Source: a virus
Taxonomy: Duplodnaviria > Caudoviricetes
Direction: 5' to 3' (one strand)
Length of the DNA stretch: 64,000 nucleotides
IMG/VR virus record: IMGVR_UViG_3300021400_000034
Span: 1-64,000 of that record
A program made the position numbers and the translations under genes. Below the pieces are notes generated by a model. That model was not told the origin of the DNA and searched no databases. It was given only the letters and a program-made list of their open reading frames with translations. Positions within the stretch are counted from its first letter, which is position 1. Every line of letters begins with the position of its first letter. This document shows, piece after piece, positions 3,233 through 64,000 of this stretch.

Positions 3233-3237
3233 CGTTA

Positions 3238-3483
3238 TTAGTCGCAGTCGTAGTAGGTTATGAAAGCGACTCGATTGCAGGATTCGACGGTCTTGCACTT
3301 AGTCTGTTTGAGATACTCGCTCTTGTACTTAGCAGCGTCGCCGTAGAGAACGTCAAAGCTGTCGATCATCATCTGCTTCTCGACGCAGATCTGATAATCG
3401 TCTTCTGGAGCAGCCGGAAGATTGCAGCCCGTGATCATGAGACCAGCGAGGAGAACGAGGAGGATGGAGACGATCTTTTTCAT
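3238..3483 (-). CDS. Small lipoprotein
   Basis: MKK, hydrophobic stretch and lipobox ITG-C20; CAACAAGGACC leader and TATATT -10 upstream on the minus strand. Confidence 0.75.
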   Translation of the reverse strand: MKKIVSILLVLLAGLMITGCNLPAAPEDDYQICVEKQMMIDSFDVLYGDAAKYKSEYLKQTKCKTVESCNRVAFITYYDCD

Positions 3484-3659
3484 TTTGTAGGTCCTTGTTG
3501 TTTCTTACACAGTAAATATAAGATTTCTCTGACCGACTCATGAGAGAAATCTCAATTTTTCTTGAAAATCTCAATTGCGCAAATGGAATGCTATTTGTAA
3601 CTGAACTGTAACTTTTCGTTTACAAAGGCGCTCTATCTCTGAAGACTCACGTGTAACGT

Positions 3660-4230
3660 TCAACGCATCGCGCTTTGCGCGAGCGTGCTCAGCGAGCTGA
3701 GCAGATTCAATTTTGAATACATTTTGCCATTGTTTTTGTCAGAGTCTCTGCGAGATTCTTCCGGTCTCCTGAGCGGAGACAATAAGCCTAGCCAGACTCA
3801 TCATCTCCGCTCAGGAAACCGTAAGAACCTTTTTCTTCCGTATATCCCTCGCTTTCGACGAACAAGGACTGCTTCTAGATGAGCTTACGGGGTCGGTCAT
3901 CCTGTACTCCCGGCTGTATCTCATCGCGTCATGGCGGCTGAGTGCAGAAGGCGCTACCCTTCTGCTTCGATGTCGACGTTTCCCAGCTCTCGCCGAGACT
4001 TGCGCTCAAGAATCTGTAGAATTCTTCCTCTTTCGAGGCCAGCCGTCAACTTTGACTGGAGAGACGCCTCCGGTGCCGATACTCACATTGGGTTGCTGTT
4101 CGTTCCCCGAAGGATTTCCGAAATGTCTTTCTGGCCCGATAACCCAGAACGGGAACAACTTGTTTTATCTGCTTTATCTGTTATATCTGTTGGTTTCGAT
4201 CTGTTAGACCGACTTTCCAAATATATATAC
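3660..4230 (-). ncRNA. Candidate large structured non-coding RNA
   Basis: No credible ORF; 24-bp stem 3756-3779/3804-3827; 8-bp stem 3944-3965; minus-strand GAAA (4027-4038) and C(UUCG)G (4105-4114) tetraloop hairpins; boundaries approximate. Confidence 0.55.
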
Positions 4231-4315
4231 AAGTCGGACCACTAAAAATTCGCTTCTCTGAGCGTTTTTAGTGTAAAACTTTCTTTACAAAGTTCTAAAA
4301 ATTGAAGAGTTGCTC

Positions 4316-4323
4316 TATAAATA
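4316..4323 (+). promoter_or_regulatory. T4-type late promoter
   Basis: TATAAATA 20 nt before an SD+ATG. Confidence 0.75.
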
Positions 4324-4342
4324 TCAAAAATATGGAGAAACT

Positions 4343-4543
4343 ATGACAAGATTTGTACTGACTGGCACTGTCAAGAACCCTAGCGCTCTCAGAATGCTCA
4401 GAGAAGATCAGATCTACTCGGGTACCATCGAAGAGAAGATCTCTAAGCTCAACCTGGAGATCGAGAGGATCGAGACTGTCGGCGACGAAGTCACTTACTA
4501 TCTGAAAGAATCAACATCTGGACCTAAGCTCCTGTGCGACTGA
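4343..4543 (+). CDS. Small hypothetical late protein
   Basis: ATG at 4343 after GGAG SD and a late promoter. Confidence 0.65.
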   Translation: MTRFVLTGTVKNPSALRMLREDQIYSGTIEEKISKLNLEIERIETVGDEVTYYLKESTSGPKLLCD

Positions 4544-4557
4544 ATGAGGAAATCTGA

Positions 4558-5055
4558 ATGAAATTCTACATTGGAAATGGCGGTGCAAAGAATCCTGGTC
4601 TTGTAGCTCTGATTAGGCTAGTGATCTGGAACATCGTAGAAAACGATCATCTGAACGTTTCGACCGACTACGTCAAAGACGTTGACAGCGACGGCGAAGG
4701 CATCTATATCGAACTCGATCCTAAGGGCAAGTTCGAGCCAGCGATTCCGGAGCATCTTCTTCCTACGGTTTTGAAGCAGCTCACGAAAAAGCTCGCGAAG
4801 GAGATCCCGTCGTGCATTGACGGCATCATGAAGAACGCTCAGTCCGAAGGCGAAGATCCTAAATCCTATCTCGAAAGCATAGTGAACGGCGGAGATGAAG
4901 AATCTGGACTATTTCCAGTCGACAACGCTAACTATGAGCTAGGAGACGAGAAGCTCGCTGCTGAACTGCTCGAAAAAGCCATGGGCATGGATCTCGCCGA
5001 GTCCTTGGACATTCTGCTCAGAAGCGGTGTCAGGGTAGTCAAGACGAAATCGTAA
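4558..5055 (+). CDS. Hypothetical protein with C-terminal MDLAESLDILLRSGVRV helix motif
   Basis: GAGG SD; 165 aa ORF. Confidence 0.7.
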   Translation: MKFYIGNGGAKNPGLVALIRLVIWNIVENDHLNVSTDYVKDVDSDGEGIYIELDPKGKFEPAIPEHLLPTVLKQLTKKLAKEIPSCIDGIMKNAQSEGEDPKSYLESIVNGGDEESGLFPVDNANYELGDEKLAAELLEKAMGMDLAESLDILLRSGVRVVKTKS

Positions 5056-5104
5056 AACCTGGATAAATAAGTAAATTTCTAGAACTCTACAAGGAGAATC
5101 ATAT

Positions 5105-5329
5105 ATGATCACTAACTCAACAGATGCAACTATCGACAGCAACGACTTCATCATCCAGTCTATGCGCAAGCTAAAGCAGCGCTTGGACATCGAGATCGAA
5201 GAAGTGAAGAACTACAAGATTCCTGAAGGACTCCAAGGTTCTGCTCTCGCTTCTGAGAAGGCTTACCGTCAGGGAGCTCTCGACGAAGTCGTCAAGTTCC
5301 GCCAGTTCATCAAAGACATGGGCGTGTAA
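5105..5329 (+). CDS. Small hypothetical protein
   Basis: AGGAG SD; GGATAAATA upstream; followed by a terminator. Confidence 0.7.
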   Translation: MITNSTDATIDSNDFIIQSMRKLKQRLDIEIEEVKNYKIPEGLQGSALASEKAYRQGALDEVVKFRQFIKDMGV

Positions 5330-5364
5330 CTGAAACTTTACAAAGTCTACAGATTGCAACCTGT

Positions 5365-5394
5365 GAACCGCTCGAAAGAGCGGTTCTCTTTTTT
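5365..5394 (+). terminator. Rho-independent terminator
   Basis: GAACCGCTC-GAAA-GAGCGGTTC followed by a T tract. Confidence 0.8.
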
Positions 5395-5409
5395 GTTGCT
5401 ATATTTAAA

Positions 5410-8400
5410 GTGATTATGTATAAGAACGTCTATTACGATCGCGAGTCGAACACCATCTTCGAACGCGAAGTCGGTGACCAAGAGTATAAGAAGCATCCAT
5501 ACACATTCAAGTATTTTATGCCTGATCCGACAGGCCAGAGTCCTATTCGAGACTGCTTCGGAGTCCCGATGAAAGAGGTGGTCTGTCGCACAAAGGACGA
5601 CTATTCTATCTACCGCGTAATGGCGAAGAAGATGAGGCTGGCGGAGTCGGACCTGAAGCCACCTGTGAAGTATATCCATGAGAAGTATGACACAGCTGAG
5701 CTCACTTACGAAGAGTATAAAGACTACCGCATCGCCTTCTACGACATCGAGACGCAGACATCACGCCGCTACTACCTCAACAAAGAGGTGAAGCTGCGAC
5801 TGATCGAGGACGGTCACGAAGAGACGATGACTCTCTACCAGTTCGAGCACACATGCAAGACGAGAAAGTGGGAGATCTGGGACATCGTCCAGAACAAGTG
5901 GCGCAAGTACTACGACAGCTGCTTCATAAATCAGGAGTTCCCGAACCCAGAAGAGGCGAACTATCCGATCAACCTGATCACGGTCTACTCGACCGTCACC
6001 AACAAGAGCTACACTTGGGGCTTGGAGCCGTACAACGGAAACTCTCCAGACGTGACCAACTACAAGTGGTTCGAGTCCGAGCTAGAGATGATGAAAGACT
6101 TCTACGTATGGTTCTTCCAGCAGAAGTTCGACATCCTGACTGGATGGAACTCAGAGAAGTTCGATGACGCTTACATCATCGGCCGAATGCAGAAGATCCA
6201 GCGAGAGAACGGCGTCAAGCACGACTATACGAGACTGCTGTCTCCGTTGAAGCTGCCGCCGCAGAAGCGTCCGATCACGGACGACAAAGGAAAAGTCACT
6301 GGCTATCATTTCTCGTCGCCGGGTCTCTACATGATCGACTATCTGGCGCTCTACAAGTTCATCGGGTTCGTGAAGAACTCGCCGTCTTGGAAGCTCGACT
6401 ACATCGGCCAGAAAGAGACTGGAGAAGGAAAGGTCAAGCTAGAGTACGGTCTCACCGAGCACTACATCAAAGACTACACGACCTACGTCGAGTACAACGT
6501 GCAGGACGTGCGCCTGATGGTGAAGATCGAAGAGAAGAAGCGTCTGTGGCCGACCACGATCGCGTACGCAAATGAAGCTCTGATCACGCTAGACTCGGTC
6601 TTCGCTATGACGGCTGCTCATGACGGCTACATCATGAAGTTCCTGCATGCGCAGAATCAGGTCTACAACGACCGATACGAGAAGCCGAAGGACTGGTGGC
6701 ACGACGAGGGCTACTTCAAGAAAGACTTGGGCGGCGGAATAATCGAGTATCAGAACTGCCGTCCGGAATCTCCGACATCGTTCGAGCCGTATGAAGTGAA
6801 AGCTGGCTACTGCTACGCGGACCCCGGACGCTACCAGCACAACATGAGCGGCGACATCACGTCGTCCTATCCTAATCACATCATCATGTACAACATCTCT
6901 CCAGAGACTCGCGTCATCAAGCCGAGCAAAGAAGACATCGAGTCCGGAAGAGTCATCCGCTCAGAAGTCAACGGAGTCGGATTCATCAACAACGACACCG
7001 CTATTCTGCCGTCCGTCGTCTCCAAGATATTCGACGAACGTCTCAAGTTCAAGCTGCTCATGCAGGACGCTGAGAAGAAGGGAGACAAGATCGCTGCCGA
7101 TCGCTACCGCACGCTGCAGCTCACCCGTAAGAAGCTCATCAACTCTCTATACGGCGCTTGCCTCTATTCGCAGTTCCACCTCTTCAATATCGACTGCGCA
7201 CGATCTATCACCCGTTGCGCACGCGTCACTATCCGCTATCTCAAGGACAACACGGACCGCTACTACCGCTCTCCGCAGATCCTCAAAGATTCGATGGAGT
7301 TCTTCCCCGTCATCAAGATCAACACCAAGTGGTACAAGAAGGAAGACGAAGTCGAGACGGATCAGGGAAAGATTCTCGCTAAAGACATCACGACCGTTAA
7401 CACTATCGACGGAAAGCCAGTCTCAGTATTCGTCAACGATCTAACTAAGAAGGAATGCCTAGTTCCTATCAAGAAGATCACGACAAAGCGCATCATAAAC
7501 ATCGTCTACGACGGCGAGTGCCACTATTTCAAACCTGGCGACGAAGTAGAGTTCGAGTTCAAAGGAAAGAAGACGAAGATGAAGCTAGGAGTCAAAGATG
7601 GCGGTGCAAGATTCACTGGAGACGAGACGATCTTGGACGAAGTCAAGGCCGTCTTCCATCACCAAGATGGCGACACTATCTCTGGCTTCGATCTCTGCCG
7701 TGGTGCTATCATAAACGGACGTCCTATCGACAACGTGAACGTGATCGAGCGTCCTGTCAAGTTCGTCAACAGAGCATCCGTTGTCGTTCAAGTTGACACG
7801 GACTCCAACTACTACTGCTTCGATGAGCACAAGATAGGACTATTCCCGTACATGGACGACATGGAGTGGTTCTACTGCATGGAGAAGCAGATGAACTGGT
7901 TCTGGAAGAAGATTCTGGACATTAAGGCCGAGAAGAACAAGATGCACAACCGCATCGTGTTCACTCGTGAGAATATGTTCTCGAACTTCATCTCTTACGG
8001 CAAGAAGCTCTATCTCGGATCCGTCGTTGACAAGGACGGCAAGTTCTTCGGCTACGAGGAAGATCCTAACAAGCATCTGAAGATCCAGGGCCTCATTCTG
8101 AAGAAGGCTGAGTTCCCGCCGTTCTGTCAGGACTACGCAGTCAAGATCACGGCTGCCGTTCTGCTCGGTCAGGACAAGGAAGAGACGACACGACAGATTC
8201 AGGACGCTTACGTGAAGTTCAAAGAGTGCAAGCCTGAGGACATCTCAGCTGCACGCACTATCGGCGACCTGTCTGTGATGCCTCACGAAATGGACTGGTA
8301 CGTAGATCACGGTCTGTCCTATCCGGAGCGCATTCACTACGCTGCGAAGATTGCTGTCAACTTCAACTACGTTAACCTCAAAGAGAAGCTCGGATATGAC

Positions 8401-8652
8401 CAGTTGCAGCGTGGATCAAAGGGAAAATATCTCTTCCTCTATCCTCGAAACAAATATGGATTCGACCAGATCGCTTTCGAGAAATGGCCAAAGGAATTCA
8501 ACGATATGTTCGAGATCGACTACGACACTACGTTCGAGAAGTTCTTCATGTCAAACTTCCACGCGCTGTTCGAGGTCATCGGCTGGGCAGACTCACGAAA
8601 AGACTACATCGAGTACAAGATGACGAAGGCTAAGAAGAAATTCCTTAGATAA
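5410..8652 (+). CDS. 43: Family B DNA polymerase (T4 gp43-like) with insertions
   Basis: ExoI YDIET, ExoII GWNSEKFD, ExoIII YNVQD, motif A DITSSYP, motif B KKLINSLYG, motif C DTDS, KKLY. Confidence 0.95.
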   Translation: MIMYKNVYYDRESNTIFEREVGDQEYKKHPYTFKYFMPDPTGQSPIRDCFGVPMKEVVCRTKDDYSIYRVMAKKMRLAESDLKPPVKYIHEKYDTAELTYEEYKDYRIAFYDIETQTSRRYYLNKEVKLRLIEDGHEETMTLYQFEHTCKTRKWEIWDIVQNKWRKYYDSCFINQEFPNPEEANYPINLITVYSTVTNKSYTWGLEPYNGNSPDVTNYKWFESELEMMKDFYVWFFQQKFDILTGWNSEKFDDAYIIGRMQKIQRENGVKHDYTRLLSPLKLPPQKRPITDDKGKVTGYHFSSPGLYMIDYLALYKFIGFVKNSPSWKLDYIGQKETGEGKVKLEYGLTEHYIKDYTTYVEYNVQDVRLMVKIEEKKRLWPTTIAYANEALITLDSVFAMTAAHDGYIMKFLHAQNQVYNDRYEKPKDWWHDEGYFKKDLGGGIIEYQNCRPESPTSFEPYEVKAGYCYADPGRYQHNMSGDITSSYPNHIIMYNISPETRVIKPSKEDIESGRVIRSEVNGVGFINNDTAILPSVVSKIFDERLKFKLLMQDAEKKGDKIAADRYRTLQLTRKKLINSLYGACLYSQFHLFNIDCARSITRCARVTIRYLKDNTDRYYRSPQILKDSMEFFPVIKINTKWYKKEDEVETDQGKILAKDITTVNTIDGKPVSVFVNDLTKKECLVPIKKITTKRIINIVYDGECHYFKPGDEVEFEFKGKKTKMKLGVKDGGARFTGDETILDEVKAVFHHQDGDTISGFDLCRGAIINGRPIDNVNVIERPVKFVNRASVVVQVDTDSNYYCFDEHKIGLFPYMDDMEWFYCMEKQMNWFWKKILDIKAEKNKMHNRIVFTRENMFSNFISYGKKLYLGSVVDKDGKFFGYEEDPNKHLKIQGLILKKAEFPPFCQDYAVKITAAVLLGQDKEETTRQIQDAYVKFKECKPEDISAARTIGDLSVMPHEMDWYVDHGLSYPERIHYAAKIAVNFNYVNLKEKLGYDQLQRGSKGKYLFLYPRNKYGFDQIAFEKWPKEFNDMFEIDYDTTFEKFFMSNFHALFEVIGWADSRKDYIEYKMTKAKKKFLR

Positions 8653-62733: not shown

Positions 62734-62794
62734 AACGAGAGATGGTCACAGCAATTTTTTATGCATGGTTCGCACAATCAAATTCCATCTCGTT
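62734..62794 (+). ncRNA. Leader hairpin/small RNA upstream of the TROVE-like gene
   Basis: AACGAG(AG)ATGG pairs with CCATCTCGTT; loop carries ACAGCAA, U6 and GGTTCG. Confidence 0.4.
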
Positions 62795-62821
62795 AACTTT
62801 GAACCGAAGGAAGTAACTCAA

Positions 62822-64000
62822 ATGTCATTCTATTCCGAAATGGAAAAGATCCTCAAGAAGAACAAGACTCTCACTGAGAACGGAGGTGTCGGCTACGAGA
62901 CTTCAGGAAACGCTCTGGTGGACATGAACTACAAGGTCGCGTCCTACCGTGGCGCCACTGAGCAGCAGATTCTGTCTGACTTCTTGAAGGCATTCGCAGA
63001 GACGCCAGAACTCGCCGTCAAGTGGATGTTCTACGCTGGTGACGTCCGTCAGGGCCTTGGCGAGCGACGTCTGTTCAAGATCCTCGTCAAGAACGTGATC
63101 CCGAAGTTCCCGCATCTCATCAAGTGGATTCCGGAGTACTCTCGTTGGGACATCGTTGTCGAGCTTCTCGGCACTCCGGTGGAAGATCAGGCAGTGGAGC
63201 TCATCCGCACTACTCTCGCTGCTGACAAGGCTGCGTTCAATGATGGTAAGCCGATCACGCTGCTCGCTAAGTGGCTGCCGTCTGTCAACACTTCTTCCAA
63301 GGAGACTGTGCGCAAGGCTAACATCCTCTGCAGCAAGCTCGGTATGAAGCCGGCGGAATACCGCAAGACTCTGTCTGCTCTCCGCAAGTACTCTAACGTG
63401 ATCGAAGTCAAGCTCTGCAAGAACGAGTGGAATGACGTGAACTACGAGGCAGTCCCGTCTAAGGCTAACCTGAAGTACAAGGACGCCTTCCTCAAGCACG
63501 ACGAGGCACGTCGTCGCGAGTTCCTCGGCAAGCTCACTGCTGGCGAAGTGAAGATCAACTCTGGCGCTGCTTTCCCGCACGACATCGTGCACAAGTATGG
63601 CCGCCACGGCCAGCTTGACGCAGCTCTCGAAGGCATGTGGAAGAACCTTCCGGCTATCGAGATGACCAAGCCGATGATCGTCGTTCGCGACGGCTCTGGC
63701 TCTATGGAGTGCACGCTCGGCAGTCGTGGATCCTGCTCGGCTCTTGAAGTCGCTACGGCTCTAGCGATCTACTGCTCTGAGCACGCTGCTCGTGGCTTCG
63801 AAGATCAGTTCATCACGTTCTCCGGTCGTCCGAAGTACGTGAAGCTGTCCAAGAACATGACGCTTCGTGACAAGCTCACACGCGCATATCAGGAAGATGA
63901 CTGCTCTAACACGGACATTCAGAAGACGATGGAGCTCATCCTCGATACGGCTAAGTCCGCTAACCTCAAGCAGGAAGAGATCCCGGATGTTCTGATCATC
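62822..64000 (+). CDS. DUF2828 / TROVE(Ro60)-like vWA protein, 3'-truncated
   Basis: Read manually (absent from the ORF track): TENG..GY.TSG, DVRQGLGER, RWD, LLAKWLP, YRK.LS, VPS.A, MIDAS DGSGSM, FITFS. Confidence 0.85.
   Translation, partial: MSFYSEMEKILKKNKTLTENGGVGYETSGNALVDMNYKVASYRGATEQQILSDFLKAFAETPELAVKWMFYAGDVRQGLGERRLFKILVKNVIPKFPHLIKWIPEYSRWDIVVELLGTPVEDQAVELIRTTLAADKAAFNDGKPITLLAKWLPSVNTSSKETVRKANILCSKLGMKPAEYRKTLSALRKYSNVIEVKLCKNEWNDVNYEAVPSKANLKYKDAFLKHDEARRREFLGKLTAGEVKINSGAAFPHDIVHKYGRHGQLDAALEGMWKNLPAIEMTKPMIVVRDGSGSMECTLGSRGSCSALEVATALAIYCSEHAARGFEDQFITFSGRPKYVKLSKNMTLRDKLTRAYQEDDCSNTDIQKTMELILDTAKSANLKQEEIPDVLII

What the first reader, a model, noticed from the sequence alone, without database searches (positions are those of the whole stretch)
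3660..4230. About 570-nt highly structured non-coding RNA candidate on the minus strand
Seen: an ORF-poor gap in an otherwise densely coded genome, packed with stems. These include a 24-bp stem (3756-3779/3804-3827) whose C/A mismatch becomes a U-G pair only on the minus strand, and GCAGAAGG/CCTTCTGC (3944-3965). Minus-strand tetraloop hairpins are CCUC-GAAA-GAGG (4027-4038), UCC-UUCG-GGG (4105-4114), a C-GAAA-G near 3852-3857 and a C-GCAA-G near 3999-4004. There is also a long-range pairing (4092-4105 with 4147-4159) and two small hairpins at 3669-3702. The tetraloops read correctly only on minus. Three CAGATA(T/A)A direct repeats (about 4163-4190) and a TATATATA box inside a CCGACTT/AAGTCGG palindrome (4209-4237) mark the likely 5' end. 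Known: phages carry large ornate ncRNAs (ROOL, GOLLD classes) of unknown function. Inference: a large ncRNA, possibly a new class, or an RNA primer/origin element near the DNA polymerase gene.
Basis: partly seen in the sequence, partly recalled or inferred. Interest (0 to 1): 0.8.

Follow-up and report, generated by a model that had tools for sequence, protein, structure and literature searches.

The report
Knotted cow-rumen-2 RNA of jumbo phage
The gene-free gap holds a real folded non-coding RNA of a giant T4-like gut phage; its centre is the catalogued but unexplained 'cow-rumen-2' motif, which is only the knotted core of a larger RNA whose tail carries a phage-specific twin signal, and its job is inferred, not shown.

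Summary
The minus-strand structured RNA is real (folding z -7.6). It is not a new class: 3971-3863 matches Rfam cow-rumen-2 above its cut-off. Homologues (47 at under 90% identity, from T4-like jumbo-phage contigs) show the motif is only the core of a ~330-nt RNA with a conserved promoter-like -10 box; this copy is about 470-550 nt. Compensatory changes support a 5' domain, the core stems and two pseudoknots missing from the Rfam structure line. Genomes of ~245 kb carry one copy; those of 411-424 kb carry 3-4. The 3' domain holds a twin motif shared by paralogues within a genome but different between genomes, pointing to a phage-specific partner. Closeness to DNA polymerase is not conserved, so a primer or origin role is unsupported. 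RNase P, Y RNA, retron and CsrB membership tests failed. Best guess (0.42): a stand-alone scaffold RNA, acting in trans with a phage protein. This scan has already found the family on other DNA.

The parts
4220..4225 (-). -10 box-like hexamer (TATATT) of a sigma70-type promoter; transcription start inferred near 4213-4211
   Evidence: same hexamer 7-8 nt before the RNA in most homologues and in the closest relative; not picked up by the generic scan; start not measured
4114..4213 (-). lineage-specific 5' extension with four CAGAT repeats (4204-4165) and a strand (4159-4147) able to unfold the 5' domain
   Evidence: absent from compact homologues; 4061-4178 present in a close variant
4067..4113 (-). 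conserved 5' domain: stem, purine-rich internal loop, stem, 8-nt loop (4094-4087)
   Evidence: 40 sequences, 89% of cells paired, 11 of 17 pairs with double changes
3972..4062 (-). hypervariable multi-hairpin segment (holds the GAAA and GCAA tetraloops)
   Evidence: differs in length and sequence among homologues; replaced by 81 other letters between identical flanks in RNA-library contigs
3863..3971 (-). Rfam cow-rumen-2 (RF02947) match, the conserved core
   Evidence: 72.9 bits, cut-off 66, full model
3944..3965 (-). hairpin whose loop (3954-3953) forms pseudoknot 2 with the hinge (3914-3913)
3931..3939 (-). conserved junction; 3935-3931 is the 5' strand of pseudoknot 1
3866..3930 (-). long bent hairpin: basal helix, 6-7-bp stem, hinge loop (3919-3913 and 3887-3884), 4-bp stem, apical loop (3906-3895) whose 3900-3896 closes pseudoknot 1
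   Evidence: all 14 nested pairs show double changes
3745..3862 (-). 3' domain: twin motif R1 (3840-3833), long hairpin (3827-3756 and extension) with the conserved GGCT strand at 3789-3784, twin motif R2 (3763-3756)
   Evidence: in this copy the repeat is only 8 nt and not significant alone (z 0.9)
3669..3703 (.). two small hairpins, not conserved; possible 3' end or terminator between convergent transcription units
   Evidence: terminator-like on plus at 3686-3703; absent from compact homologues
3238..3483 (-). downstream 81-aa lipoprotein-like ORF with its own promoter-like region; not a conserved neighbour
   Evidence: no Pfam family
5410..8652 (+). family B DNA polymerase (context only; linkage to the RNA not conserved)

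Best explanation
This is a stand-alone phage gene for a modular non-coding RNA of the cow-rumen-2 family. SHOWN by comparison: a conserved fold in which a long hairpin bends back so that its apical loop pairs with the junction at its base (pseudoknot 1) and the loop of the preceding hairpin pairs with the hinge (pseudoknot 2); a conserved 5' domain; a swappable middle segment; and a 3' domain with a twin motif on either side of a hairpin. INFERRED: host RNA polymerase transcribes it from an early sigma70-type promoter and it acts in trans as a ribonucleoprotein scaffold. A fast-evolving phage protein, probably a dimer, would bind the two copies of the motif that the 3' hairpin brings together, and the invariant knotted core would engage a conserved host target, most likely in translation or tRNA metabolism (takeover or counter-defence). 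The target and the protein are not identified.
For: Rfam hit. Core: 92% of cells paired, 17 of 19 pairs with double changes, 0 of 500 shuffles reach this. 5' domain. Pseudoknot 1 has eight strand combinations, with double changes at three positions. Pseudoknot 2 dinucleotide complementary in 46 of 47, against 38 in shuffles. Independence from neighbours: unrelated gene contexts, 9 of 46 loci face a convergent gene, different sites in syntenic relatives. Phage-specific partner: the 3' domain is most alike within a genome (12 of 19 nearest neighbours, permutation p 0.0005), the 5' domain is not (1 of 19); the twin motif is kept in all four paralogues of one phage, including one with a decayed core, while the hairpin between differs, and the exact 11-mer occurs nowhere else in 266 kb; own R1 matches own R2 better than others' (median z 2.5). 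All five near-complete carriers have 33-53 tRNA genes; this phage also has a CCA-adding enzyme and two RNA ligases.
Against: No partner protein was found among the core genes scanned. The tRNA link may be a trait of the whole clade; no complete genome lacking the RNA was available as a control. Paralogues from one genome are not independent and one row was mis-anchored. Gene conversion could contribute to the within-genome likeness. In this copy the twin motif is short. RNA-library contigs are at depth 2-3, unstranded, and may be DNA.
Confidence: 0.42

Rival explanations
1. A large ribozyme, for example a tRNA-processing enzyme analogous to RNase P or a self-processing RNA; the knotted invariant core is the active site.
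For: Two pseudoknots, a conserved C-A opposition, a helix with a bulged base and many invariant unpaired bases; size like RNase P RNA; carriers are tRNA-rich and no RNase P RNA was found in the five phage records searched. Short words recall RNase P regions (own knowledge; compare).
Against: No RNase P match by Rfam at E up to 10, none between the family profiles and host-type RNase P RNAs even when doubled to allow permutation. The strands that would make RNase P helix P4 covary with local partners instead. Four divergent copies are odd for a housekeeping enzyme.
Confidence: 0.2
2. A protein-free RNA that assembles into dimers or cages like ROOL, GOLLD or OLE; the 'pseudoknot' pairs could be between molecules and the twin motif could set self-recognition.
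For: Same setting: large, ornate, phage-borne, tRNA-rich genomes (bioRxiv 2024.12.08.627333). Covariation cannot tell intra- from intermolecular pairs.
Against: No Rfam match to those families; half their size; R1 and R2 are direct repeats that cannot pair with each other and have no consistent partner in the RNA; not near the tRNA array in this genome.
Confidence: 0.14
3. A selfish or hitch-hiking cassette that moves between intergenic promoter sites, its 3' end being recognised by a mobilising enzyme.
For: Different sites in syntenic relatives; decayed and core-deleted copies; genome-specific 3' ends.
Against: No reverse transcriptase in five genomes; no transposase or recombinase as a shared neighbour; copy number low (1-4); one locus is kept beside the same baseplate gene across phages of 28-48% G+C.
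Confidence: 0.1
4. A replication-origin transcript (primer or R-loop RNA, like T4 origins or ColE1 RNA II) with the twin motif as an initiator site.
For: Promoter, structured RNA and genome-specific repeats; copies spread out and scaling with genome size; A+T-rich DNA follows some copies.
Against: Linkage to DNA polymerase not conserved; copies do not sit at the G+C-skew switches (switches near 158 and 340 kb, RNAs at 51, 113, 273 and 359 kb); several copies are followed at once by a terminator-like hairpin and a convergent gene.
Confidence: 0.07
5. A cis-acting leader (processive antiterminator like HK022 put) for long operons.
For: Starts at the promoter; 37 of 46 loci have a co-directional gene downstream.
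Against: In this phage and its two closest carriers the single copy points against the surrounding gene block.
Confidence: 0.04

Closest known systems
cow-rumen-2 RNA motif (Rfam RF02947; to my recollection one of the 224 candidates of Weinberg et al. 2017, PMC5737381, whose main text does not name it and whose supplement was not held)
   Same: 3971-3863 matches the whole 106-position model above the cut-off; same stems.
   Different: The model covers a third of the RNA. Its printed structure line shows neither pseudoknot; the 5' and 3' domains, the phage origin, the paralogues and the twin motif were not found described (two papers mention the name, only in a table). This copy is divergent (73 bits against about 100-108) and carries extensions.
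ROOL and GOLLD RNAs (PMC5737381; bioRxiv 2024.12.08.627333)
   Same: Large, pseudoknotted, phage-borne RNAs of unknown function in tRNA-rich genomes.
   Different: No model match; about 330 nt conserved against 581 or more than 800; not beside tRNAs here; multimer state untested.
Bacterial RNase P RNA (RF00010, RF00011)
   Same: Similar size, pseudoknotted core, a helix with a bulged base, some short look-alike words.
   Different: No model or profile match; the would-be P4 strands pair locally; no P1-P3 before the 5' motif.
Bacterial Y RNAs bound by Ro60/Rsr (PMC4201824)
   Same: This phage encodes a DUF2828 (Ro60-like, per another note) protein; CGAAG words recur in the RNA.
   Different: DUF2828 was not found in three near-complete genomes with 3-4 copies; the GNCGAA motif is in 13 of 48 RNAs only; about 58 kb from the gene; no tRNA-like domain.
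T4 R-loop origins and ColE1 RNA II (own knowledge)
   Same: Promoter-driven transcript of several hundred bases in an intergenic gap.
   Different: Invariant tertiary core, terminators after several copies, no link to skew switches or replication genes.

Membership tests
cow-rumen-2 (RF02947) | full-length match above the gathering score | tested here: met
   72.9 bits against 66, model 1-106
cow-rumen-2 (RF02947) | consensus stems kept with compensatory change | tested here: met
   this copy has a longer basal internal loop
ROOL / GOLLD / OLE | match to their Rfam models | tested here: not met
   no hit at gathering score or at E up to 10
ROOL / GOLLD / OLE | protein-free multimer or cage | not testable with these tools
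   needs cryo-EM or mass photometry
RNase P RNA | match to type A or B model, also if permuted | tested here: not met
RNase P RNA | long-range P4 helix between the 5' motif and the 3' GGCU strand | tested here: not met
   the 5' strand covaries with a local partner; no covarying stem between the two blocks
RNase P RNA | cleaves pre-tRNA | not testable with these tools
   bench assay
Y RNA / Ro60 | Ro60 orthologue in every carrier, gene within about 4 kb | tested here: not met
   TROVE 0 of 10; DUF2828 in 2 of 5 near-complete carriers
Y RNA / Ro60 | GNCGAA(N)G motif near the 5' end | tested here: not met
   13 of 48 anywhere in the RNA
retron / defence RT ncRNA / group II intron | cognate reverse transcriptase | tested here: not met
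   PF00078 0 of 5 genomes
CsrB/RsmZ sponge | many conserved GGA loops | tested here: not met
   the CAGGAUG look-alike changes to GGU or GGG in step with pseudoknot 1
tmRNA | tRNA-like domain and tag frame | tested here: not met
   ARAGORN and Rfam negative; no profile match to host-type tmRNA
R-loop replication origin | position at a skew switch or fixed link to replication genes | tested here: not met
R-loop replication origin | persistent RNA-DNA hybrid that primes synthesis | not testable with these tools
   bench assay

The most novel reading that the evidence does not exclude
The full RNA is an undescribed large ribozyme or catalytic ribonucleoprotein of jumbo phages, with a doubly pseudoknotted core and a phage-specific address in its 3' domain, acting on tRNA or the ribosome.
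Probability: 0.2. Interest if true: 0.9.

Novelty: new variant of a known kind. Interest (0 to 1): 0.56.

Why it matters
An orphan 106-nt Rfam motif gains a biological home (T4-like jumbo phages of the ruminant gut), plausible boundaries, a tertiary architecture and a testable handle: a twin motif that evolves with each phage genome, which predicts a phage-encoded binding partner. Large pseudoknotted RNAs of unknown function are the class from which new ribozymes and RNA cages have come. A 330-nt compact member can be made in vitro for probing, cleavage assays and cryo-EM without culturing the phage.

Tried and rejected
RNase P homology, straight or permuted: rejected. CsrA sponge and ribosomal L1-stalk mimicry, both suggested by the loop sequence: rejected because those bases covary as pseudoknot 1. 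A pairing of the junction AGCC with the 3' GGCU, predicted by RNAalifold: both strands are nearly invariant and the 3' strand covaries in a local hairpin, so it is undecided and not counted. Reverse transcriptase and TROVE partners: none; DUF2828 is patchy. Twin motif at mRNA leaders or other promoters: not found. Partner search among about 40 mostly core proteins: nothing RNA-binding beyond repair enzymes. Cultured phages: no DNA match; capsid about 30% identical to T4-like cyanophages. Cellular homologue: none in 61 genomes of the genus of a Fibrobacter-labelled assembly; matches in other assemblies lie on phage-like contigs. Host link by DNA match: none in 101 genomes. Unbiased prevalence test: long ENA contigs were not searchable, and empty results in incomplete relatives show nothing. 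Literature searches found no description of the larger RNA.

Full report
Setting. The window is the first 64 kb of a complete 243,336-bp phage genome with terminal repeats. It is T4-like (family B polymerase, helicase, tail sheath, baseplate), has 33 tRNA genes at 131-141 kb, a CCA-adding enzyme and two RNA ligases. Two proteins with the Fibrobacter paralogous domain and a related phage contig in a Fibrobacter-labelled assembly suggest a Fibrobacter-like host; this is inference, and no DNA link was found.

Observation. The gap between the 81-aa ORF (3483-3238, minus) and the small plus-strand ORF at 4310 folds better than every shuffle, more so on minus (z -7.58 against -4.13). The listed elements are present. 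One long hairpin (3756-3827) carries much of the energy; without it z falls to -1.7 to -2.5 on minus and about zero on plus. The case therefore rests on comparison, not on energy.

Identity. Rfam gives one hit in the window: cow-rumen-2, 3971-3863, minus, 72.9 bits against a cut-off of 66. Nothing else passes in the gap, and only tRNAs in the rest of the genome. Pattern scans and a profile search gave 95 distinct loci, 48 at under 90% identity; one apparent chimera was dropped. Those examined lie on phage or phage-like contigs, several from goat and yak gut assemblies. They align well beyond the model, about 165 nt upstream and 110 nt downstream, starting 7-8 nt after a TATATT or TATAAT hexamer. 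The compact form is about 330 nt. This copy adds a 5' extension and tail hairpins and runs from about 4212 to 3745, or 3660 with the tail; neither end was measured.

Structure shown by covariation. Core (45 distinct sequences): 92% of cells paired, 17 of 19 pairs with changes on both sides, far above shuffled and slid controls. 5' domain (40 sequences): 89% paired, 11 of 17 pairs with double changes; three loci types use other 5' domains. Pseudoknot 1 joins the junction 3935-3931 to the apical loop 3900-3896: eight strand combinations occur, with double changes at three positions and a fourth pair that is C-A in most and U-A in four. Pseudoknot 2 joins two bases of the preceding hairpin loop (3954-3953) to the hinge (3914-3913): G-C turns to A-U in seven sequences and C-G to U-A in one, 46 of 47 complementary against 38 in shuffles; this test is loose and ignores relatedness. 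Together they imply a long hairpin bent back on itself and locked twice. Covariation cannot say whether these pairs form within or between molecules.

The GAAA and GCAA tetraloops lie in the hypervariable middle segment (4062-3972). The UUCG hairpin and the 4092-4159 pairing use strands that the conserved 5' domain needs, and are near-equal in energy to it; they may be an alternative fold peculiar to this lineage. The palindrome is not conserved, but the -10 hexamer inside it is.

Expression. Contigs from RNA libraries of three bovine-gut studies cover 3835-3971 and 4061-4178 at 99-100% identity, and two contigs bridge the middle segment with 81 different letters. This shows a close variant with a swapped middle segment. 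It does not show strand, ends or level, and DNA could contribute.

Distribution and mobility. This genome and a 248-kb relative have one copy each; genomes of 411-424 kb have three or four, 50-200 kb apart and on both strands. Neighbours are unrelated between loci. In relatives with 90-95% identical polymerases the RNA is directly upstream of the polymerase in one, beside the CCA-enzyme gene about 140 kb away in another, and a near-identical RNA type occurs at a further site. Nine of 46 loci face a convergent gene. Some copies are decayed or lack the core. The gene behaves as a self-contained cassette that acts independently of its neighbours.

The 3' domain. Two imperfect direct repeats flank a hairpin; own R1 matches own R2 better than chance and better than other RNAs' R2 (median z 2.5, 29 of 47 above 2), though here the repeat is just 8 nt. 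Among paralogues, the 3' domain is most alike within a genome (12 of 19 nearest neighbours, p 0.0005) while the 5' domain is not (1 of 19, one row mis-anchored). In one phage all four copies keep nearly identical R1 and R2 while the hairpin between them differs, and the motif is found nowhere else in 266 kb. Selective retention of this kind fits a genome-specific binder better than wholesale gene conversion, which cannot be excluded.

Mechanism. Most likely (0.42) a trans-acting scaffold: a phage protein binds the twin motif and the invariant core engages a conserved host target, with translation or tRNA metabolism the best guess from the company it keeps (33-53 tRNAs in all near-complete carriers). 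Fold, modularity and genome-specific motif are shown; transcription timing, the partner and the target are inferred. Rivals: ribozyme (0.2), RNA-only multimer (0.14), mobile cassette (0.1), origin transcript (0.07), antiterminator (0.04). Membership of RNase P, tmRNA, Y RNA, retron-type and CsrB families failed on tested features; G+C-skew switches do not mark the copies.

Novelty. The motif is catalogued, with only table mentions in the searchable papers. The larger RNA was not found described in the literature, but this scan has reported it several times on other DNA; those notes are not independent support. No listed note mentioned the genome-specific twin motif. Verdict: real; new variant of a known kind; interest 0.56.

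Noticed in passing
window 4165-4204: The four CAGAT repeats of the 5' extension use the same word that the 415-kb phage lineage uses as its 3' twin motif; a relocated binding site or chance.
   Followed up: partly
window 4092-4159: A strand of the 5' extension can unfold the conserved 5' domain at almost equal energy: a possible on/off switch peculiar to this lineage.
   Followed up: partly
L005 7030-7830 (minus); L177 about 6370-7250: Relatives keep the same -10 box but have about 350 nt of further structured sequence before the 5' domain, which would make an RNA of 750-800 nt.
   Followed up: partly
window 62765-64000 (gene runs to 64318 in the genome): DUF2828 protein; a short element just ahead of it (about 62735-62795) resembles one inside the tRNA array near 135.0 kb (both start GAGATGGT and end CCATCTCG), consistent with another note's Y-like RNA.
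   Followed up: partly
genome 76.9-81.1 kb (L242): Two large proteins with the Fibrobacter succinogenes paralogous domain (PF09603), a host hint.
   Followed up: partly
L334 about 2470-2800: A copy that keeps the 5' and 3' domains but has lost the conserved core: a decayed gene.
   Followed up: no
L157 about 600-1000: 5' half of one RNA type joined to the 3' half of another at the conserved core: assembly chimera or recombinant; left out of the statistics.
   Followed up: partly
L165, L166, L169-L172, L174, L175, L470-L474: Phage-like contigs of this clade are binned into archaeal and bacterial genome assemblies (Methanobrevibacter, Bacilli and others), probably by mistake.
   Followed up: no
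window 3233-5410: The stretch upstream of the polymerase is an insertion hot spot: five relatives carry different small-gene sets there.
   Followed up: partly
G002 153019-153091: ARAGORN calls a tRNA with a UUA (stop) anticodon in the 248-kb relative.
   Followed up: no
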